From: Escherichia coli
Lineage (GTDB): Bacteria > Pseudomonadota > Gammaproteobacteria > Enterobacterales > Enterobacteriaceae
Assembly (NCBI GenBank): GCA_025336725.1
Contig: GCA_025336725.1_3647.1
DNA length: 64,000 bases
Reading direction: 5' to 3' (one strand)
Shown here: positions 5,975-59,149 of the stretch, one piece after another
Numbering within the stretch: the stretch's first letter is position 1
Layout: the number at the start of each line of letters is the position of its first letter
The notes under the pieces: generated by a model
Database searches by the model: none
What the model was told of the DNA's origin: nothing
What the model saw: the letters and a program-made list of their open reading frames with translations, nothing else
Position numbers and translations under genes: made by a program

Positions 5975-6316
5975 CTACTCAAGGTCTTCAGAGTCAAGCT
6001 CAAAAAGAATCAAACTGTGCATGCCTGCAGAGAGATCAACACACCCTGCAACAATAAGGGTTTGATAGTAAGGTTCAGCACCCTCAATATCTTCGTTAAA
6101 ATCCACAACAAGGTAGTCACCTTTGTTAAAGGTGTATTTGTCCGATGTAAACGCAAAACCTGCCCAGTCCCCTACTGCAGGATCTTTATCAGTCACCTTT
6201 GTTAGTAGTAGATCTTTTTCACGAGATCTTTTAGTAAAATCGTGAATCACAACATCCTTCTCTTCAGGAGTCGGATTGCCACACACGTAGTTAACGATAT
6301 TTCTCCACAAACTCAT
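5975..6316 (-). CDS. hypothetical protein
   Basis: 113 aa ORF, 4-nt overlap with downstream helicase gene. Confidence 0.5.
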   Translation of the reverse strand: MSLWRNIVNYVCGNPTPEEKDVVIHDFTKRSREKDLLLTKVTDKDPAVGDWAGFAFTSDKYTFNKGDYLVVDFNEDIEGAEPYYQTLIVAGCVDLSAGMHSLILFELDSEDLE

Positions 6317-7683
6317 ACGTCCCCCTTTTCTGCTCTAGTTTCAAAATCTTTCCTGACTTTCTCGTCTAAGCCAGGGAAAGTTGTATTATAAAACTCTACG
6401 ACTCTCGGGTCAACAATAATATCCACCTCTCTTAATGGACGCAATAAGTTTATTCCTTGTATCGTCTTAACCCGACTCAAGGCAACATACGTCATTCCGG
6501 GAGAGAAAGCTCCGTTCTTTCCGAGGTCTAGGTTGTAACAATCTAACGTAAGTCCTTGACTTTTATGCGATGTTACTGCGTACCCAGATTTCAAAGGAAG
6601 TTGCTCATAAGACCCGATCACAACCCTCTCTATGAACTTCTCCATCTTCCTTTCGGCAATATTGTACCTCTGGGAAGGTTTGTACTCGTTATTCTCCCAC
6701 AATCTCGGCTCAATTTCAACCTGTGTTCCGTCTTCTAGCTCAACTACTACGGATTTGGTCTTGAATTTTACCACTGTGGCACGTGTCCCGTTAACATAAT
6801 ACGGAACTTTGTGAGTAGGGTCAACATCGTTTGAGGTTATCATAACCTTCATCCCTATCTTCAGCCTCATTTCCTGCTCCACAGGTAGTGTGGAAGGGAA
6901 CTTACCTTTCATTTTACCAATGTAGGTCTTCTCTGGGGCCTTGATGGCATCATAGAAACGTCTGTTCACCTCCTCTGCTTGCTTATTGGTGGCACAGATG
7001 GTCAAGGCATCTGTTGGGACACCACCATGATAGCAACGAGTGTTAAGCTCTGCTACAACCTCTTTTATGCGACGACCTTCACGAACACAGTTCAACATTG
7101 TGGCGAAGCGAACAGATTCCTGACGGAACTGGTCTACCAAGGCTATGTTGTGAAGATTAAGATCCTCCCAAGATTCTGTATAGCAACACAGATCTGTGTG
7201 GTAGAAGTTGAAGTAGGCTTCTTTCTCCATAGAAGAGACAACTGGAGGTGCTTGGTAGAAATCTCCAAACAATAACACCTGAATGCCTCCGAAAGGTTTG
7301 TCATTTTTCCGAAGAAAGCGGAGTTTTCTATCCATCTCTATGAACTTGTCAGCACGGATCATAGAGATTTCATCGATAATCAGGATGGTAAATGCCTTGC
7401 TTTTCAGAGGCTTTGCTGTTTTTGCCCTTATTGCTGTCCAGTCTGACTCCATGCTCACACCTGCGGCAAGATCGAAAGTTCGGTGCGCTGTTGCTCCATT
7501 AACGTTTAAAGCGGCTACCCCTGTCGGGGCAACCGTTATGCAAGAGTCTCCATACATGGACTGGATCATGTTGATAAGATATGTCTTCCCGGTTCCACCA
7601 GGTCCACTTACGAAGACATTCTCACCGCTCATGATTGCAACAAGGGCAGCATCTGTGCCTACATCGTACTGCCCTTTTTCCAT
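6313..7683 (-). CDS. SF1B DNA helicase (PIF1/RecD/Dda-like)
   Basis: 456 aa; Walker A VSGPGGTGKTYL, Walker B IIDEISM, motif LLFGDFYQAPPV typical of PIF1/Dda-like helicases. Confidence 0.8.
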   Translation of the reverse strand: MEKGQYDVGTDAALVAIMSGENVFVSGPGGTGKTYLINMIQSMYGDSCITVAPTGVAALNVNGATAHRTFDLAAGVSMESDWTAIRAKTAKPLKSKAFTILIIDEISMIRADKFIEMDRKLRFLRKNDKPFGGIQVLLFGDFYQAPPVVSSMEKEAYFNFYHTDLCCYTESWEDLNLHNIALVDQFRQESVRFATMLNCVREGRRIKEVVAELNTRCYHGGVPTDALTICATNKQAEEVNRRFYDAIKAPEKTYIGKMKGKFPSTLPVEQEMRLKIGMKVMITSNDVDPTHKVPYYVNGTRATVVKFKTKSVVVELEDGTQVEIEPRLWENNEYKPSQRYNIAERKMEKFIERVVIGSYEQLPLKSGYAVTSHKSQGLTLDCYNLDLGKNGAFSPGMTYVALSRVKTIQGINLLRPLREVDIIVDPRVVEFYNTTFPGLDEKVRKDFETRAEKGDV

Positions 7684-52940: not shown

Positions 52941-53320
52941 TATGCTAACCCTTGCTGTTCCTTGTAAAGATCAACTGGGGTGCCGTATACAAGTTGTAGC
53001 TCAGATCTGGCCCCAAGGTTGTATCTTCCAACCCTGCCCCAATATTGATCGTCTTTAAACGACAGAGCCATCAGCCTACCCTTCGGTAAATCGTCTCTGT
53101 AATGCAGCCCGTCTAAAATGTCTTGACAAGCTGTTACTTTTCTGGTTACTAAAGGACTGTCGCCTACTGGACCAAGGGATAACCACCAGGACTCATCCCT
53201 CTCGTTCCATTGCATACGCATTTCATAGGTTTCATTATCTAAAACCACACGCATGGTCTGATCAGGAAAGCCGTCAATGTCCCACACAAAGGTGATTATG
53301 CACCAATCTTTAAGCTCCAT
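52940..53320 (-). CDS. hypothetical tail protein
   Basis: 126 aa ORF in tail operon. Confidence 0.4.
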   Translation of the reverse strand: MELKDWCIITFVWDIDGFPDQTMRVVLDNETYEMRMQWNERDESWWLSLGPVGDSPLVTRKVTACQDILDGLHYRDDLPKGRLMALSFKDDQYWGRVGRYNLGARSELQLVYGTPVDLYKEQQGLA

Positions 53321-53332
53321 TACACGCTCCCC

Positions 53333-53878
53333 TTATTTTCCGTTAACTTTGTTGTAGTTCCCCTGCTCAGATGGGACTATGGTGGAAGGTCTTCCATATT
53401 CCTGATAATACCAATCTGCAGCCGATTGGGTAACACCGTTTTCATCTGTCCACATCATGGATTTGTATGGCTGCCACTCTTCTGCAGCATTTGTGGACGC
53501 GGTGTCTGCAAATGCCCCTGTGTCTCTCTTGTTACCTACGTTACTACCATTCTTGCAATCGTTGACAGCCCCTTTTTGCTGGGTCTTGCCGACCTTCTTG
53601 GGGTTGCTGTATACAGTTGCATTAACAACCTTGTTCAAGTAGAATGTGCGGAATTCTGTAAGTTCCACATCAAACACCATTGCAGCACCCTCACCAACAG
53701 ACTTGTTGGCAGAAAGACTGGTTATAATGTAGTTTTCAAGGAGTCTCTCTTCAGTAACTAAAGAAACCAACTGCCGCTTATTAATGATCTCGTCAAAGTT
53801 TCCAGTGCAGCGCCGCAAGTCGCATAGACGCTGCAGGGTTTTTAGAGTCAGTATTCCTGTCAATGTAGTTTTGCTCAT
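53333..53878 (-). CDS. hypothetical tail protein
   Basis: 181 aa; ATG at 53878 directly after in-frame TAA; overlaps upstream ORF by 86 nt. Confidence 0.4.
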   Translation of the reverse strand: MSKTTLTGILTLKTLQRLCDLRRCTGNFDEIINKRQLVSLVTEERLLENYIITSLSANKSVGEGAAMVFDVELTEFRTFYLNKVVNATVYSNPKKVGKTQQKGAVNDCKNGSNVGNKRDTGAFADTASTNAAEEWQPYKSMMWTDENGVTQSAADWYYQEYGRPSTIVPSEQGNYNKVNGK

Positions 53879-54218
53879 AGATTATATGTGGTGATGTATT
53901 TACCCTACCAGTAAAAGAAAATACACCATCTTTAATTACAGCGTGGTCTGACAGGGTAGATTTATCTTCCACCGCAAACCCAGTCTTATCAACAGAATGT
54001 TTGAAAGAATAGTTCTCAACCTGGTCGAAGATAATGGCAAGATCGTTAGTAAAGTTTTTACCCTTCATCTCCGTATTGCGACCACCATAGTTAAGACCGC
54101 TGACAAACATAGTATACTTTACATCGCTTTCAGTTTGCTGCTCTGCCTTTTCAGCCTTTGGAGATTTAACCTCTTGAGGCTTGTACAGGTCTTTTTCATC
54201 AACTATATTGCTTGGCAT
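53793..54218 (-). CDS. hypothetical tail protein
   Basis: 141 aa ORF; 3' end overlaps next gene in a different frame. Confidence 0.4.
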   Translation of the reverse strand: MPSNIVDEKDLYKPQEVKSPKAEKAEQQTESDVKYTMFVSGLNYGGRNTEMKGKNFTNDLAIIFDQVENYSFKHSVDKTGFAVEDKSTLSDHAVIKDGVFSFTGRVNTSPHIIYEQNYIDRNTDSKNPAASMRLAALHWKL

Positions 54219-54282
54219 AACCTCTCCAGGACACTCCTATACCATCTAGATATTGTATCATAAACAGCTACGTTTTTACAAC

Positions 54283-54312
54283 ACCGATAAAATAAAGGGG
54301 GCCGGAGCCCCC
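54283..54312 (-). terminator. rho-independent terminator
   Basis: Minus strand GGGGGC-TCCG-GCCCCC followed by TTATTTTAT. Confidence 0.5.
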
Positions 54313-54323
54313 TGCACAGTTTA

Positions 54324-54464
54324 TTACCAAAGGTCGGTAGACATGAAGTTGATATCTTTATTGTTCTCCCACTCAAGTTTTGCATCAAATATTTTGTTAA
54401 ACTCGCCCTCATCTATTGAAATCGTGATTTTCCCATCACTGATCTCTAAAGGTAGCATTTCCAT
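54324..54464 (-). CDS. small hypothetical ORF (46 aa)
   Basis: MEMLPLEISDGKITISIDEGEF.., below ORF-track cutoff; sits just upstream of terminator; weak RBS. Confidence 0.25.
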   Translation of the reverse strand: MEMLPLEISDGKITISIDEGEFNKIFDAKLEWENNKDINFMSTDLW

Positions 54465-54637
54465 AGTTCTTAATTGAGAAGCAAAACCGAGGCCACCCCG
54501 GCAACGGAAAATCCCGCCCCATTAAGGTGTCCAAAGGATTAACAAACCCGTTACCTCAAATGAAAGTATCTTTGCGAATCATATCGCTGATAGCATCCAG
54601 CTGCTGATTTCTTTCACTTAGTGGGTTGTAACGGTCA

Positions 54638-56662
54638 TTAAATAATTCCGGCGCTTAGTATTATACCGATAATGCCCAGCTTACCGAGCAGACCAACTTT
54701 GCCACCAGGTGTCTTGAGGCCACCCCCACCTTTTCCTGCCGGAGCTCCACCACCAGATCCTTCTGTAGTAGCGGCACCAGCTGCTGCTGCTGCTCCAGCT
54801 GCACCCCTTAGAGAGTTAAGGAATTTAAAGGTTTTTACAAGCATGGATGCCATGACAAAACCTTTTGTTAGGGCGTTGACTACCAGCATGATGGCAGCAG
54901 CAAACCCTGCCCATTTAGCATAGCTAAAGGTGTCATGAAGCTCTTCAGAATATTCCTTCGTCTTAGCTGTTATGAATCCCCATTTAATCCCCCATTCAAG
55001 GAAAAACATGCGGATCTTGACTATAGTGTTGTTTAGTTCACCAACTACCCAGTTAAGGCCTCTCACAAACCCGCTAACAAAATCACCAGAGGCATCCACA
55101 CAAATTACGGGGAGTCTCGCCAGTGCGAATCAGTGTATAATGAACTCTGTTAATTCATCGCTTAACGGGTGAACAGCTTCTGACAGGATAATTCGATGAA
55201 GGTTTTCAGTCTGTTTTCTGCCAATGCGTTAGACTTCTGCATTCTTTCATAACCGGCTGCAGATGCCTCGTTCATATACTTAGCCACATACTTCATGATC
55301 TTGGCTGTCTTAACCTCACCTTTCTTCATCATGTCCATGAACTGATCCATGGACAGTTCAGAAAAGACCAAAAGCCTCTTTGGTGGCTTTGATAAAGGTT
55401 ATGCGGGCAATGCTTCAGCAAGTTGTTGCTTCAGTTCTTCGGACATTACCTGTCCTTTCCCGAGCAATTTGCTGGATTGCCATGATACCACGCTGGTATT
55501 TTACCTCATCGGCACCATAAGCAGCAGCATACTGTGAGTATGCAGAAAACAGCTCATGCACTTCCTGATTTGTCATCTGGTTTTTGGCGTTTACCGACAT
55601 CTGGGCGTAACCTTGAAGACCAGATTTGAGATCAAAACCAAGACGCATAGCCTCTTGCTGGACAAACGCAACCTCACTGTTGGCTTTGTTTGGATCTCCA
55701 GTAACAGCAGTAAGAGCAGCACTTGCCCCCTCCATCATGTGACCAGATCTGTTCACAGCAGTAAATCCAGAGAAAGCCGTATACGCAGCTGTTGCATTAA
55801 TAACAGACCTACGTAAGTCTCTCATGGCATCACCAAGTGTAAGCGTTTGGCTGGTGGCGCTTTTAAATCCAGACTGCAGAGCTGACAGGTGGGCGTTAAA
55901 GGTTGACTTTTTCATCTCCCCGCGAGCAAACCTGGACTCTAACTCTGAGTATCCAGGCAAGCTTCCACGGAATCCGGCTCCATACTTGGCAGAAAGTCTT
56001 ATCGCAGAGTTGTAGAGGTGGGTTCTCCTTGCCTCACGATCCGACATAAGCCTATTATCCATGCCAGCTTTACTGTCCCTTCTTAGCTGTCTATGATAAC
56101 GATTCATAGCAGCTGTCTGAGCTTTCACAAGGTTAGGGTCGGAAGCCACACCACCCATATTAGGGTTACCAGGGATATACTTGAAAGATTTGGCATTAGC
56201 CAAAACTCTTGCCTTAGGTGCCTTATAACCGCCGTAAGACACTGGTGTAGATTTGGCAGCCTTTTTGGCCTCTTTAGCTTGCTGCTGGTAGAACTTACGC
56301 ATCCTAGCCATTTCTGGATTTTTAGCGGTAAGATTGCCTACAGCTTGTTTACGTCTCGCGTTCTCCCTACGTTCTATTGCGGCCCTTACTGCAGCCTCTT
56401 TCTTGGCTTGTGCTACGCTCTCCCTGTGCAGTTTAGCATTTGCCTGAGATTGCTGTCTGGCAACCCGCTGCATTGTTTGCTGGGTTTTAACAGCCACTGC
56501 CTGCCATCTACTCATCGGGTTGGCTGAGTTAAAATCCTCGCCAAGTTTCCTGAACTCCCTCCCAATACTGCGAATTTTCTCTACAGCTTTTTTGTAGGAG
56601 GAGTTCTCTATCTCAAAGCCAATCTTGTTGACTGTTGTGGCAACTATTTTGTTTGTAGCCAT
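54638..56662 (-). pseudogene. tail tape measure protein gene, apparently disrupted
   Basis: Three consecutive same-strand ORFs in three frames (55415..56662, 55162..55371, 54638..55099) downstream of G/GT chaperone; the two distal ORFs lack RBS and ATG; additional in-frame TAA. Confidence 0.5.
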
Positions 56663-56674
56663 GCTTTCCTCATA

Positions 56675-56711
56675 ATAAAAAGGGCCAGATCCCAGAAAAG
56701 GAATCCGGCCC
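56675..56711 (-). terminator. hairpin plus T-run between chaperone and tape measure genes (terminator or attenuator)
   Basis: Minus strand GGGCCGGAT-(12-nt loop)-ATCTGGCCC followed by TTTTTAT. Confidence 0.35.
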
Positions 56712-56716
56712 TTAGA

Positions 56717-57450
56717 TTATCCTCTCCTGCGCTTAGCTTTCGCAGCAGCTGCGGCAGCCTTCTGCTCCCGCTCCATTTCCCTGTTTTGGACGGTATCTAG
56801 GAATTCTTCGATATCAAGATACTCACAGAGCTTCAGGAAATACGCCATATCTGCAAGATTTAGCGATTCAAAATTTTCCCCTTTGAAATTCTTGAGCACC
56901 CTGCACCAAAGAAAGTCGAACCAGTTAAGTGAACTGTTCTTGGCTGCCCACTCACTGGCCCTCACAACAACCTTGCTTATTCCTGCTCTTCCGGAGTCTG
57001 ATCCAGATTGTTCACCTGCTGGATCATACCCATCTGCTGTAACATCTCCAGAAGGCTTCCTAAACCGTCTTGTGTGAAAAAACAGCCGTAGTTAACCTCC
57101 AGAACCTTACCTGCCAGCTTAATCATCTCCAGCAGATGCCCTGCAAACACAACATCAGGGTTAAGCTTATCCACACCATCCACGGTAATATCTTCGAACA
57201 AGATTTTAAATAACTCTTCAATAGAGTTATCATCAAGTTCCTGGAACAGGTAAGCTAGGGCTGTAGGAAGGACCTCTGCCATATTCTGACCGCCTGAGAG
57301 AATAGATCCACCGATAGCACCTAGCGGGACAGCCACAATCTTACCGATTTTAGGCATGTTTTTCATTGCTTTCATCGGCCCCCAGTGAGTGATCACAAAG
57401 TTGTGCCCTGCTAAATCAATCTCTGTTGTAGGTCTAAAGTTTATAGCCAT
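56717..57450 (-). CDS. tail assembly chaperone frameshift product (gpGT-like) via -1 ribosomal frameshift
   Basis: -1 frame is open from near the slippery site through ORF 56717..56965 (82 aa, no own RBS). Confidence 0.55.
56977..57450 (-). CDS. tail assembly chaperone (gpG-like)
   Basis: 157 aa upstream of tape measure; slippery heptamer near 3' end. Confidence 0.65.
   Translation of the reverse strand: MAINFRPTTEIDLAGHNFVITHWGPMKAMKNMPKIGKIVAVPLGAIGGSILSGGQNMAEVLPTALAYLFQELDDNSIEELFKILFEDITVDGVDKLNPDVVFAGHLLEMIKLAGKVLEVNYGCFFTQDGLGSLLEMLQQMGMIQQVNNLDQTPEEQE
57076..57082 (-). other. -1 slippery heptamer T TTT TTC
   Basis: Minus strand ..GGC TGT TTT TTC ACA..; forward strand A6 run 57077-57082. 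Confidence 0.55.
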
Positions 57451-57493: not shown

Positions 57494-57522
57494 ATTTTAC
57501 CATGATTATAGCGCATTGTCAA
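57494..57522 (-). promoter_or_regulatory. sigma70-like promoter upstream of chaperone gene
   Basis: Minus strand TTGACA (57522-57517), 17-nt spacer, TAAAAT (57499-57494). Confidence 0.4.
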
Positions 57523-57523
57523 T

Positions 57524-58762
57524 TTAACCTTTCAACCAATCCAAGTATGCAGGATCATTTTTACCTTCATCGCTGTGCCATTCGAAGCGAGAGTTGCCGC
57601 TGTTTTCAAGGATATAGCAGCCTGCATTTTTAGCATTCCACTCTTGTGTTTTCTCAGGATCGTATAAGGACTCGTCCAACCCTAAATGCTTCAGTGTCTC
57701 TTGGATGTTTGACTTCCACCAAGCCTGTCTTGGCATTCTGCCACCACGGTAGCTCCAGAAGCTGGTAGATACCTGATCGTCCTCTGCCAAAATCCAGCCA
57801 TCCTCCTCCTTATAGGACACACCTGTGAAGTAATCCCTGTCAAGGAAGGATTGAACATGATCCATCTTAAACTCTTTTTGGATATGCTTAAACAGCTTAC
57901 TACGCCCACCAGGAACGTTACAGCTTGTTGCATACCTTACCATGTCCCACATAACGAAAGGGGTTACCTTTTGATCTCTGTTTTTCAATACCTTAAAACT
58001 CATACAAGCTACCAGCTCACCGTCAGATGTAAACAGACCCTTCTTCACTTCCTTGGCGGGAGCATACCCTTGAATGTGGTTTTTCTCCATAAAGTCACGG
58101 TAAGTTTTATTGTCCACATCCCTAACTGTGCACTTTCTGGCATAGACGGTCTTCTCGTCTTTGACTCCTAAAGCATTCTTAAGATATCTCTCAATGATAG
58201 GTCTTTTCCGAGCATCCTGCCAATCACAATCCCATATAGACAACATGCGAATACCTTGTTTTTCACAGGCCTTCCTTTTCAGGATGTGGTACCATTTCCC
58301 CTTACTATCCACGGAGTGCCAATAGGCACCATTATATTCCACAGCAAGCTTAAGCTCCGGGATATAAATGTCCAGCTCCATCTTTTTCTTGGAAGGATCT
58401 TTAAAGTTGTCCAGAATCCGCACGTTCTCTTCAATATCTCCGCTATAGACACTTTTAATGAACGTCAGGATCTCTTTTTCACCATTAGACTGATTGCGAC
58501 AGCAACGAGGGCATCCTTGTCCTTTCCCGTAATGGAATTCAGGACGCTGCATGAAGATATTCCCACACTCTTTGTGGCGCATCATCATAGGCGTTGAGGC
58601 GTTCACATAAGAGTCTTCAAAATACTCATAATCCCCACCATGAACTTCTACACATCTCTCAACTATTTCTTGGAAGCTAGGAACTTTTTTCACAGAAACA
58701 GACCTTGCTGCGCAAGTCTTGCACCCTTGCCCAGATAAATGCTTGCTGGGTTTCTGATACAT
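57524..58762 (-). CDS. homing endonuclease-like protein (zinc ribbon plus nuclease-like domain)
   Basis: 412 aa between tube and chaperone genes; N-terminal HGGDYEY..C..CG..F.Q.P..H..G.GCP.C zinc-ribbon; central ..LDIYIPELKLAVEYNGAYWH.. Confidence 0.45.
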   Translation of the reverse strand: MYQKPSKHLSGQGCKTCAARSVSVKKVPSFQEIVERCVEVHGGDYEYFEDSYVNASTPMMMRHKECGNIFMQRPEFHYGKGQGCPRCCRNQSNGEKEILTFIKSVYSGDIEENVRILDNFKDPSKKKMELDIYIPELKLAVEYNGAYWHSVDSKGKWYHILKRKACEKQGIRMLSIWDCDWQDARKRPIIERYLKNALGVKDEKTVYARKCTVRDVDNKTYRDFMEKNHIQGYAPAKEVKKGLFTSDGELVACMSFKVLKNRDQKVTPFVMWDMVRYATSCNVPGGRSKLFKHIQKEFKMDHVQSFLDRDYFTGVSYKEEDGWILAEDDQVSTSFWSYRGGRMPRQAWWKSNIQETLKHLGLDESLYDPEKTQEWNAKNAGCYILENSGNSRFEWHSDEGKNDPAYLDWLKG

Positions 58763-58849
58763 TATTCTTCCGCACGTTTTGCAATGAATCTCAACCTTAT
58801 CCCAGAGGTCTTGCTTACTACATGGCTATGACCATACTTTTCAGCATTT

Positions 58850-59149
58850 TCAAGGATATCTTTTTAATACCTTTTTGATCCACTCCTCGGTAGTGCACCT
58901 GTTACCACGCTCATGTGGGAATTTCTTACCCTTTCTTGATTTTGCAGATCTCTCAGCTCCACAAACAGGGCATCCTCTTTTTAGATTTATATGGTTATCA
59001 GGTGTCTGGTTGAAGTGGTTACCGCAGGTATTGCAGACTATTTCTACCTTATCTTTGCATGTTTTGTATTCTATAAGAGAATAATCGTACTTATCTCCGT
59101 GAACCCTACGAGCTTTTTCGATAAACCTTTCTGCACTCAATTTAGCCAT
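58850..59149 (-). CDS. small zinc-ribbon protein related to N-terminus of adjacent endonuclease-like gene
   Basis: 99 aa; HGDKYDYS..CNTCGNHFNQTPDNHINLKRGCPVCG parallels N-terminus of ORF 57524..58762. Confidence 0.45.
   Translation of the reverse strand: MAKLSAERFIEKARRVHGDKYDYSLIEYKTCKDKVEIVCNTCGNHFNQTPDNHINLKRGCPVCGAERSAKSRKGKKFPHERGNRCTTEEWIKKVLKRYP

What the first reader, a model, noticed from the sequence alone, without database searches (positions are those of the whole stretch)
56717..57450. Canonical -1 programmed frameshift site in the tail assembly chaperone
The gpG-like ORF contains T TTT TTC (57076-57082) in the correct phase. The -1 frame is open from there through the 82-aa ORF, which has no start signals of its own. 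This matches the conserved G/GT mechanism of tailed phages and supports the tape measure assignment downstream.
Basis: partly seen in the sequence, partly recalled or inferred. Interest (0 to 1): 0.45.

Follow-up and report, generated by a model that had tools for sequence, protein, structure and literature searches.

The report
Tail chaperone G/GT frameshift site
This rV5-like E. coli phage almost certainly makes a short and a long tail-assembly chaperone from one gene by a -1 ribosomal slip on T TTT TTC: the ordinary lambda-type G/GT device, strongly conserved in this clade, though no GenBank record I opened annotates it as a joined product.

Summary
On the minus strand, the 157-aa ORF at 57450-56977 is a tail assembly chaperone (Pfam Phage_TAC_15, E 1e-23). 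It contains T TTT TTC at 57082-57076 in the phase needed for a -1 slip. The -1 frame is open from 57091 to 56717. The predicted products are G (157 aa, 17.3 kDa) and GT (244 aa, 27.1 kDa).

One genome alone is weak evidence, so the case rests on comparison:
- In 39 distinct homologous genes (28-100% protein identity), the three wobble bases that make the heptamer are essentially invariant, while neighbouring wobble bases vary freely.
- Two lineages carry a different slippery heptamer at or near the site: G GGA AAG and C CCT TTT.
- The -1 frame is always open, and the fusion is 244-252 aa in 15 of 17 representative taxa.
- The first start codon of the downstream ORF wanders from +12 to +144 nt, often inside the conserved T domain.
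- No in-frame fusion was found except one T7 variant in a Felixounavirus record.

I found no conserved stimulatory RNA structure. This is a known mechanism, already reported for sister families. Interest is low to moderate.

The parts
57494..57522 (-). Sigma-70-like promoter (TTGACA, 17-nt spacer, TAAAAT with TG) just upstream of the chaperone gene
   Evidence: One search gives 11 of 12 matches. The rV5 record annotates a promoter (P51) at the equivalent place. This is a consensus match only and has not been tested.
56977..57450 (-). G: tail assembly chaperone ORF, 157 aa plus stop, 17.3 kDa (the zero-frame product)
   Evidence: Pfam PF21822 Phage_TAC_15 E 1.1e-23. phrog_3840 tail assembly chaperone E 6e-69. 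In the AF2 model (pLDDT 70) the last high-confidence helix is residues 106-124, so the confident core ends at the slip site. A lower-confidence helix follows at 127-139.
57096..57100 (-). GGAGG, a Shine-Dalgarno-like pentamer 13 nt upstream of the heptamer; possible lineage-specific stimulator
   Evidence: Read directly from the sequence. GGAGG is present in Vequintavirus, Avunavirus and phAPEC8, and partial forms (GGAGA, GAGG) occur in Seunavirus and Justusliebigvirus. It is absent in Certrevirus, A73, the Klebsiella phages and Plateaulakevirus. A stimulatory role is inferred by analogy with dnaX, from my own knowledge.
57076..57082 (-). Slippery heptamer T TTT TTC (zero-frame codons TGT TTT TTC = C123 F124 F125)
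   Evidence: Wobble conservation across 39 distinct homologues: codon 123 ends in T in 38 of 39, codon 124 is TTT in 37 of 37 Phe, and codon 125 is TTC in 37 of 38 Phe.
56980..57091 (-). 112-nt zone where the zero frame and the -1 frame are both open
   Evidence: GGT at codon 129 is invariant (36 of 36 Gly) and TTC at codon 130 is invariant (30 of 30 Phe). These bases overlap the conserved R-F of the -1 frame product, which points to selection on both frames.
56717..57082 (-). -1 frame segment read after the slip: 2 re-read Phe codons, 119 new residues and a stop. It comprises a Gly/Ser/Pro-rich linker, a conserved helical T domain and a basic tail. The GT fusion is 244 aa, 27.1 kDa
   Evidence: phrog_10409 E 2e-51 (function unknown).
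56717..56965 (-). 82-aa ORF as conventionally annotated (GTG start, weak AAGG at 56974-56971)
   Evidence: It is annotated as a separate hypothetical protein in HMD-6, JohannBauhin and Murica.
56680..56713 (-). Intrinsic terminator-like hairpin (14 bp) followed by a T tract, directly after the T stop codon and before the tape measure gene
   Evidence: The rV5 and Murica records annotate terminators at the same place.
55415..56662 (-). [quoted passage not shown]
   Evidence: phrog_5255 E 7e-178 over profile positions 1-416 of 800, and Pfam TMP_3. Relatives have an intact protein of 778-779 aa.

Best explanation

Most ribosomes read the zero frame and produce G (157 aa). A minority slip when the two tRNA-Phe sit on TTT (P site) and TTC (A site). 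Both tRNAs move back one base, re-pair with TTT TTT, and the next codon read is CAC. Translation continues in the -1 frame to the TAA at 56719-56717. The product is GT (244 aa): G residues 1-125, a flexible Gly/Ser/Pro-rich linker, a roughly 65-residue conserved helical T domain and a basic C-terminal tail.

By analogy with lambda gpG/gpGT, the shared N-terminal domain coats the tape measure protein. The rarer T domain recruits the tail tube subunit, so the slip frequency sets the G:GT ratio.

Shown here: the gene identities, the heptamer and its phase, the open frame, and evolutionary conservation of all three. Inferred: that the slip is ribosomal, its efficiency, and the functions of the G and T domains.
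For: 1. Identity and position. G matches PF21822 and phrog_3840. The flanking genes are sheath and tube upstream and tape measure downstream.

2. Anatomy. The heptamer is in phase, the -1 frame is open for 124 codons, and this is the only in-phase heptamer in the overlap.

3. Conservation at synonymous sites. There are 39 distinct genes in 10 clusters at 70% protein identity.
- The base before the Phe-Phe pair is T in 38 of 39. It is T whether that codon encodes Cys (TGT), Pro (CCT) or Ser (AGT); a further metagenomic group at 75% identity has Ser TCT.
- Codon 124 is TTT in 37 of 37 Phe, and codon 125 is TTC in 37 of 38 Phe.
- Neighbouring wobble sites vary: Tyr121 is TAC 25 / TAT 14, and Val119 uses four codons.

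4. Heptamer replacement. Barbavirus has G GGA AAG in the overlap. KLEP7 has C CCT TTT one codon upstream.

5. Frame and product length.
- The -1 frame is open in all 17 representative taxa, in the 29 IMG/VR loci (one runs off its contig end), in 4 metagenome loci and in 2 Ounavirinae.
- Fusion length is 244-252 aa in 15 of the 17 taxa.

6. No conserved independent start.
- The first ATG/GTG/TTG in the T frame lies +12 to +144 nt after the G stop.
- In Certrevirus, the Klebsiella phage, KLEP7 and Plateaulakevirus it falls after the conserved NSSL-WFD motif.
- Annotators resorted to CTG (rV5) and ATT (PVP-SE1) starts.
- In L052, L053, Hena1 and ukendt no T ORF is called or annotated at all.

7. 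No natural fusion. All 73 database homologues of the GT query are G-only, 149-159 aa. In every sampled phage record where both halves match, they match as two pieces in two frames.

8. Literature. A conserved -1 frameshift with a GTTTTT motif in this chaperone gene has been reported for the related Vandenendeviridae and Andersonviridae (PMC12846349). I confirmed T TTT TTC at the homologous position in Felixounavirus and Mooglevirus.
Against: - There is no experimental product. GT is not a virion component, so the virion proteomics discussed for CB7 would not be expected to detect it.
- There is no conserved downstream stem-loop or pseudoknot. RNAalifold found no covariation. Folding the first 60 nt after the heptamer gives z-scores from -2.3 to +2.0 across 16 lineages, and +0.87 for the window.
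- The only notable local fold in the window (z -2.8) has its main stem starting about 20 nt after the heptamer.
- The efficiency of T TTT TTC in E. coli was not established here.
- In Vequintavirus itself a GTG with a weak AAGG lies 12 nt after the G stop, so some free 82-aa T protein cannot be excluded.
- The slip site is 32 codons before the G stop rather than close to it as in lambda.
Confidence: 0.87

Rival explanations
1. Transcriptional slippage. RNA polymerase occasionally inserts one extra U in the T6 tract, producing mRNAs in which G(1-125) and T are in one frame. The protein would be identical to the ribosomal frameshift product (…CFFHTRR…).
For: The signal is a homopolymer, and the T-run and its length are very strongly conserved. 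No ribosomal stimulatory RNA structure was found. One Felixounavirus record (CL1) has T7 in the DNA, and the resulting single ORF equals the predicted fusion. That shows a one-base gain at this run yields the same product. [quoted passage not shown]
Against: From my own knowledge, efficient slippage by bacterial RNA polymerase normally needs runs of about 8-9 or more A/T, and T6 is short. Barbavirus (G GGA AAG) and KLEP7 (C CCT TTT) have heptamers that are classic ribosomal slip sites but are not long homopolymers. The constraint seen is on codon phase (X XXY YYZ), not merely on run length.
Confidence: 0.05
2. Two independent genes. The downstream ORF is translated on its own, from GTG at 56965 with the weak AAGG or from CTG at 57085 (the equivalent of rV5 locus position 1566) using the GGAGG. 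This would give a free 82-123-aa protein with no fusion to G.
For: GTG at 56965 has AAGG 5 nt upstream and lies 12 nt after the G stop, which could allow coupled re-initiation. The GenBank records I opened for this clade that annotate the ORF treat it as a separate gene: HMD-6, JohannBauhin, Murica with an RBS, and rV5 with a CTG start.
Against: The start is not conserved. Its position varies from +12 to +144 nt with no consistent Shine-Dalgarno sequence, and in several genera it would delete the conserved N-terminal half of the T domain. This rival does not explain the invariant wobble bases of the heptamer, the always-open -1 frame across the 82-154-nt overlap, or the conserved R-F motif in the -1 frame just after the heptamer. 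Gene callers find no ORF at all in some relatives.
Confidence: 0.05
3. Chance or artefact. The heptamer is fortuitous or a homopolymer sequencing error, and the downstream ORF is non-coding.
For: The window does contain many small indels elsewhere (tape measure and endonuclease genes). A single in-phase heptamer in a 112-nt overlap has roughly a 0.1 chance expectation.
Against: There are no indels in this region relative to relatives. In 475 of 491 records the match covers at least 80% of G, and every locus I read except CL1 has the same frame structure. The T domain is conserved as protein down to 22-25% identity and has its own PHROG family.
Confidence: 0.01

Closest known systems
Lambda gpG/gpGT tail assembly chaperone frameshift (Levin 1993; Xu, Hendrix & Duda 2004, 2013, 2014, as summarised in PMC5009743)
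   Same: Two overlapping ORFs lie between the tail tube/major tail gene and the tape measure gene. There is an in-phase X XXY YYZ heptamer, and the long form arises by a -1 shift. Neither ORF is known as a virion protein. The Barbavirus relative even uses lambda's own heptamer, G GGA AAG.
   Different: The heptamer is T TTT TTC. The slip is 32 codons before the G stop, so GT lacks the last 32 residues of G. The host phage is a contractile-tailed myovirus. The T domain has no detectable sequence similarity to any Pfam family, lambda gpT's included. A promoter and a terminator bracket the G-T pair.
Chaperone frameshift with a GTTTTT motif reported for Vandenendeviridae (Pakpunavirus Adele) and Andersonviridae/Ounavirinae (PMC12846349)
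   Same: The structural module is related (that paper places Vequintavirinae and Stephanstirmvirinae as relatives). The poly-T slip motif sits at the end of the N-terminal chaperone domain. The -1 frame is uninterrupted, and the downstream ORF is routinely mis-annotated as a hypothetical protein. I confirmed T TTT TTC in phase at the homologous …NFGSFF| position in Felixounavirus BPS17L1 and Mooglevirus Silverhawkium.
   Different: The passages I retrieved from that paper describe the locus analysis only for Vandenendeviridae and Andersonviridae. In Ounavirinae, G is shorter (132-135 aa), the overlap is 76-82 nt and the fusion is about 213 aa. Protein identity to the window's G is below 30%.
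Phage P2 E/E+E' tail gene frameshift (Christie et al. 2002; recalled from my own knowledge, not checked here)
   Same: It is a myovirus chaperone pair upstream of the tape measure gene, with a -1 slip on a T-rich heptamer (recalled as T TTT TTG).
   Different: The protein family is different. I did not retrieve the paper, so this is a lead rather than a tested comparison.

Membership tests
G/GT-type tail assembly chaperone with programmed -1 frameshift | The upstream ORF is a tail assembly chaperone homologue | tested here: met
   PF21822 Phage_TAC_15 E 1.1e-23, 84.5 bits against a cut-off of 22. phrog_3840 E 6e-69.
G/GT-type tail assembly chaperone with programmed -1 frameshift | The gene pair lies between the tail tube (major tail) gene and the tape measure gene | tested here: met
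   Minus-strand order is sheath 61116-59740, tube 59729-59256, an inserted HNH endonuclease, G, T, then tape measure from 56662. The order is the same without the endonuclease in JohannBauhin.
G/GT-type tail assembly chaperone with programmed -1 frameshift | A second ORF in the -1 frame overlaps the 3' end of G and extends beyond its stop | tested here: met
   The overlap is 112 nt and the extension is 260 nt. This holds in all relatives examined.
G/GT-type tail assembly chaperone with programmed -1 frameshift | An in-phase slippery heptamer X XXY YYZ lies within the overlap and is conserved or replaced among relatives | tested here: met
   T TTT TTC has invariant wobble bases in 37-38 of 39 distinct genes. 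Replacement heptamers occur in two lineages.
G/GT-type tail assembly chaperone with programmed -1 frameshift | The downstream ORF lacks a conserved start of its own | tested here: met
   Start position varies from +12 to +144 nt, and annotators used non-canonical CTG and ATT starts. Caveat: Vequintavirus itself has a GTG with a weak AAGG.
G/GT-type tail assembly chaperone with programmed -1 frameshift | A fusion protein GT is actually produced at a low, fixed ratio to G and is required for tail assembly | not testable with these tools
   This needs western blot or mass spectrometry and genetics. No report was found for this clade.
G/GT-type tail assembly chaperone with programmed -1 frameshift | A downstream stimulatory RNA structure (often cited for -1 frameshifting, though not a strict requirement of phage G/GT sites) | tested here: not met
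   No consensus structure or covariation. No consistent stability in the 60 nt after the heptamer across 16 lineages.
Lambda gpT-like T domain | Sequence similarity of the -1 frame domain to a known T-domain family | tested here: not met
   No Pfam hit at E up to 1 for 14 T-domain homologues, apart from weak noise. No PDB hit. The only matches are PHROGs of unknown function: 10409, 8811 and 16039. The AF2 model was too poor for fold comparison (pLDDT 53).

The most novel reading that the evidence does not exclude
The T6C tract may be an ancient, position-locked recoding signal shared by a large assemblage of myoviruses: Vequintavirinae, Stephanstirmvirinae, Plateaulakevirus, Ounavirinae/Andersonviridae and Vandenendeviridae. 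It would work with no RNA structure at all. It might work partly or wholly through RNA polymerase slippage, or with an upstream Shine-Dalgarno-like GGAGG in some genera, rather than through the textbook heptamer-plus-structure mechanism.
Probability: 0.1. Interest if true: 0.45.

Novelty: new member of a known kind. Interest (0 to 1): 0.27.

Why it matters
The main value is for annotation. None of the 26 GenBank records I opened joins the two ORFs, whether Vequintavirinae, Stephanstirmvirinae, Plateaulakevirus, Barbavirus or Ounavirinae. Instead:
- the T part is called a hypothetical protein;
- it is given an implausible CTG or ATT start; or
- it is left unannotated.

The 244-aa GT protein of these therapeutically used E. 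coli, Salmonella and Klebsiella phages is therefore missing from protein databases. The conserved T6C site gives a simple rule for annotating it. It also gives a clean natural series (T TTT TTC, C CCT TTT, G GGA AAG) for testing structure-independent -1 frameshifting in enterobacteria. It does not change what is understood about how phage tails are built.

Tried and rejected
- **Downstream stimulatory structure.**
  - A single-sequence fold of the 123 nt starting at the heptamer gives z -2.8, but the main stem starts about 20 nt after the heptamer.
  - RNAalifold on 9 genera found only a non-covarying pairing that includes the heptamer itself.
  - 60-nt folds in 16 lineages are inconsistent.
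  - I rejected a conserved structural element.
- **Upstream GGAGG as a universal stimulator.** It is present in only some genera. I keep it as a lineage-specific possibility only.
- **+1 frameshift.** The +1 frame closes after 19 codons.
- **Natural in-frame G-T fusions as Rosetta-stone evidence.** None appeared among 73 database homologues or the sampled phage records. The only one is CL1, with T7, probably a homopolymer error or a rare variant.
- **T-domain identity.**
  - Pfam, a PDB profile search and an AF2 model (pLDDT 53) gave nothing usable, so no fold search was run on it.
  - A search with the T sequence returned only 2 close homologues.
- **G fold search against the PDB.** It found no solved chaperone, only Vibrio PLE ORF19.
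- **Another heptamer in the window.** A AAG GGG at the 7683-6313 / 6316-5975 junction is an ordinary ATGA overlap.
- **Literature.**
  - The rV5, phiTE and phi92 papers contain none of the search terms frameshift, chaperone or slippery.
  - The CB7 paper mentions a chaperone only for an unrelated gp38-like tail-fibre protein.
  - The Vladimirov 2022 paper and a heptamer-efficiency survey could not be retrieved.

Full report
**What the window is.** The region around the finding is 95.6-95.7% identical to Escherichia phages JEP1 and HMD-6. It matches about 120 other rV5-like phages of the genus Vequintavirus.

The genes here run on the minus strand, in this order:
- tail sheath, 61116-59740 (phrog_205);
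- tail tube, 59729-59256 (PF11681 / phrog_280);
- an inserted HNH homing endonuclease, 59149-57524;
- the 157-aa ORF, 57450-56977;
- the 82-aa ORF, 56965-56717;
- the tape measure gene, starting at 56662 (phrog_5255, E 7e-178).

**Checking the observation.**
- The plus strand at 57076-57082 reads gaaaaaa, which is TTTTTTC on the coding strand.
- Counting codons from the ATG at 57450, the zero frame reads TGT TTT TTC (Cys123, Phe124, Phe125). The heptamer is therefore T TTT TTC in the X XXY YYZ phase.
- The -1 frame has a TAA at 57094-57092 and is then open for 124 codons to the TAA at 56719-56717.
- It overlaps the 157-aa ORF by 112 nt and runs 260 nt past its stop.
- This is the only in-phase heptamer in the overlap, and the +1 frame closes after 19 codons.
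- A slip would give G(1-125) followed by HTRRFRKPSG…, a 244-aa, 27.1-kDa protein, against 17.3 kDa for G.

**Is it more than chance?** In a single genome, only modestly.
- Of the 97 ORFs of at least 100 aa in the window, 10 have an in-phase heptamer in their -1 overlap.
- Four combine that with a long -1 extension. Two of these are on the plus strand, opposite to the genes characterised here, so probably spurious. One is an ordinary ATGA start/stop overlap.
- The case therefore rests on comparison with relatives.

**Identity of the ORFs.**
- The 157-aa ORF matches Pfam Phage_TAC_15 (E 1e-23) and phrog_3840, "tail assembly chaperone" (E 6e-69).
- An AlphaFold model built on 35 homologues has pLDDT 70 and pTM 0.64. 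Its last high-confidence helix is residues 106-124, so the confident core ends at the slip site. The remaining 32 residues score lower.
- The 82-aa ORF matches only PHROGs of unknown function.

**Comparative evidence.** I collected the locus from these sources:
- 26 annotated phage records: Vequintavirus, Seunavirus, Avunavirus, Henunavirus, Certrevirus, A73, a Klebsiella phage, Phapecoctavirus, Justusliebigvirus, Plateaulakevirus, KLEP7, Barbavirus, Felixounavirus and Mooglevirus;
- 29 IMG/VR contigs;
- 4 metagenome contigs.

Five results follow.

1. *The frame is always open.*
   - In every locus the -1 frame stays open across the end of the chaperone gene, for 224-296 nt beyond its stop.
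   - One IMG/VR locus is cut short by the end of its contig.
   - The predicted fusion is 244-252 aa in 15 of the 17 representative taxa. It is 231 aa in Barbavirus, 293 aa in KLEP7 and about 213 aa in Ounavirinae.

2. *The heptamer is held at synonymous sites.*
   - All but two lineages carry T TTT TTC in phase at the homologous position (…NYGCFF, …NYGPFF, …YYKSFF, …NFGSFF).
   - Among 39 distinct genes, which fall into 10 clusters at 70% identity and go down to 28% identity with the window:
     - the codon before the Phe pair ends in T in 38 of 39, across Cys TGT, Pro CCT and Ser AGT;
     - a further metagenomic group at 75% identity has Ser TCT;
     - the first Phe codon is TTT in 37 of 37;
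     - the second Phe codon is TTC in 37 of 38.
   - The adjacent Tyr is TAC 25 / TAT 14 and the nearby Val uses four codons. Selection therefore acts on the nucleotides, not only on the amino acids.
   - One caveat: the IMG/VR scan was seeded with the peptide motif. That biases which amino acids were found, but not which codons encode them.

3. *The two exceptions carry other slippery heptamers.*
   - Barbavirus has G GGA AAG, lambda's own heptamer, in the overlap.
   - KLEP7 has C CCT TTT one codon upstream.

4. *The downstream ORF has no conserved start.*
   - The first ATG/GTG/TTG lies from +12 to +144 nt after the G stop, with no consistent Shine-Dalgarno sequence.
   - In Certrevirus, the Klebsiella phage, KLEP7 and Plateaulakevirus it falls after the most conserved T-domain motif, A..YA.KNSSL.WFDYL.
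   - Annotators used CTG (rV5, JES2013) or ATT (PVP-SE1).
   - In Hena1, ukendt, L052 and L053 the stretch is left empty.

5. *Both frames appear constrained just after the heptamer.* The bases cGGTTTc are invariant at wobble sites (GGT 36 of 36, TTC 30 of 30). They encode Gly-Phe/Leu in the zero frame and the conserved Arg-Phe in the -1 frame.

**No natural fusion.**
- A search of 5.8 billion proteins with the fusion returned 73 homologues, all G-only (149-159 aa).
- In the phage collection, every sampled record that matched both halves did so as two pieces in two frames.
- The one exception is Felixounavirus CL1. Its deposited sequence has T7 instead of T6 and so encodes a single 213-aa "tape measure chaperone". 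This protein is the fusion predicted for its relatives (…NFGSFF|RSKHFQKPNF…).
- The other Felixounavirus hits listed match over a span 1 nt (in one record 3 nt) shorter than CL1. BPS17L1 and Silverhawkium have T6 with two ORFs.

**Mechanism.**
- The best-supported mechanism is tandem -1 slippage of two tRNA-Phe on U UUU UUC.
- I found no conserved stimulatory structure:
  - RNAalifold gave no covariation;
  - the 60 nt after the heptamer fold with z-scores from -2.3 to +2.0 across 16 lineages, and +0.87 in the window;
  - the only notable fold in the window has its main stem starting about 20 nt downstream.
- A GGAGG lies 13 nt upstream of the heptamer (57100-57096). From my own knowledge, that spacing stimulates -1 slippage in dnaX. 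It is conserved in only some genera, so it is at most a lineage-specific enhancer.
- Transcriptional slippage would yield the identical protein and cannot be excluded from sequence alone. It is disfavoured because the run is only six T and because the two replacement heptamers are ribosomal-type sites.
- Independent initiation at GTG 56965, with AAGG 5 nt upstream (annotated as an RBS in Murica), may add some free T in Vequintavirus. It cannot explain the conservation pattern.

**Function.** This is inferred from lambda: gpG and the G part of gpGT bind the tape measure protein, the T part binds the tube subunit, and the ratio is about 30:1 (PMC5009743). One difference is that the slip here occurs 32 codons before the G stop, so G and GT carry alternative C-terminal modules. 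The pair is also bracketed by a strong promoter-like site (57522-57494) and a terminator hairpin (56713-56680). Both are also annotated in rV5.

**What is known.**
- The G/GT paradigm is textbook.
- A December 2025 paper (PMC12846349) reports a conserved -1 frameshift with a GTTTTT motif in this gene for Vandenendeviridae and Andersonviridae. It names Vequintavirinae and Stephanstirmvirinae as relatives.
- The passages I retrieved from that paper describe the locus analysis only for those two families.
- The rV5, phiTE and phi92 papers contain none of the search terms frameshift, chaperone or slippery. The CB7 paper mentions a chaperone only for an unrelated gp38-like tail-fibre protein.
- None of the 26 records I opened carries a joined CDS. 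Some Ounavirinae records label both ORFs "tape measure chaperone".

**Verdict.** This is a new member of a known kind: an un-annotated but unsurprising instance of a known mechanism. Its value is mainly for annotation and as a structure-free frameshift model. Interest is about 0.27.

Noticed in passing
window 53300-55500 (minus-strand tape measure gene 56662 to about 54300, and the tail tube initiator gene): Relative to HMD-6, the window carries about 17 small indels of 1-7 nt here. They break the tape measure gene (778-779 aa in relatives) into ORFs of 415, 69 and 153 aa and further fragments. The best database identity for this stretch is only 94.5%. This looks like sequencing or assembly error, or a decayed copy. 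The G/T region itself has none of these indels.
   Followed up: partly
window 57524-59149, minus strand: An HNH/DUF723-type homing endonuclease (phrog_559) is inserted between the tail tube gene and the chaperone gene. It is intact (541 aa) in HMD-6. In the window, 1-nt indels near 58800 and 58852 split it into 99 + 412 aa. It is absent from most Vequintavirus genomes: their matches cover only 73% of the query, and in JohannBauhin only 162 nt separate the tube and chaperone genes.
   Followed up: partly
L056:874-1515 (Escherichia phage CL1, OK040806, Felixounavirus): The homologous slip site has seven T instead of six. The record therefore encodes the long GT form as one 213-aa ORF and cannot make the short form in the zero frame. 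The other Felixounavirus records listed match over a span 1 nt (in one record 3 nt) shorter. This is either a homopolymer error or a natural GT-only variant.
   Followed up: partly
PDB 5ir0 versus the window G protein (57450-56980, minus strand): The only solved structure resembling the chaperone is ORF19 of the Vibrio cholerae PICI-like element (PLE), whose function is unknown. The profile hmmsearch gives E 9.5e-4. Foldseek gives probability 0.97 and target-normalised TM 0.61, but its E-value is only 0.28. This hints that the phage satellite encodes a tail-assembly-chaperone-like protein.
   Followed up: no
window 56680-56713 and 57494-57522, minus strand: The G-T pair is bracketed by its own strong promoter-like site and by an intrinsic terminator between T and the tape measure gene. 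It therefore looks like a separate or attenuated transcription unit, not simply part of a long tail operon. The rV5 and Murica records annotate the same signals.
   Followed up: partly
L004:1566 (rV5 ORF50), L003:1566 (JES2013 ORF49), L005:1686 (PVP-SE1 gp58): Reference records give the downstream ORF non-canonical start codons: CTG immediately before the heptamer in rV5 and JES2013, and ATT in PVP-SE1. The annotators evidently saw the long open frame but did not invoke a frameshift.
   Followed up: yes
window 5975-7683, minus strand: An in-phase A AAG GGG heptamer sits at the end of the 456-aa ORF, with the next gene in the -1 frame. This is an ordinary ATGA stop/start overlap, since the next ORF has its own ATG at 6316. 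It is not a recoding site.
   Followed up: yes
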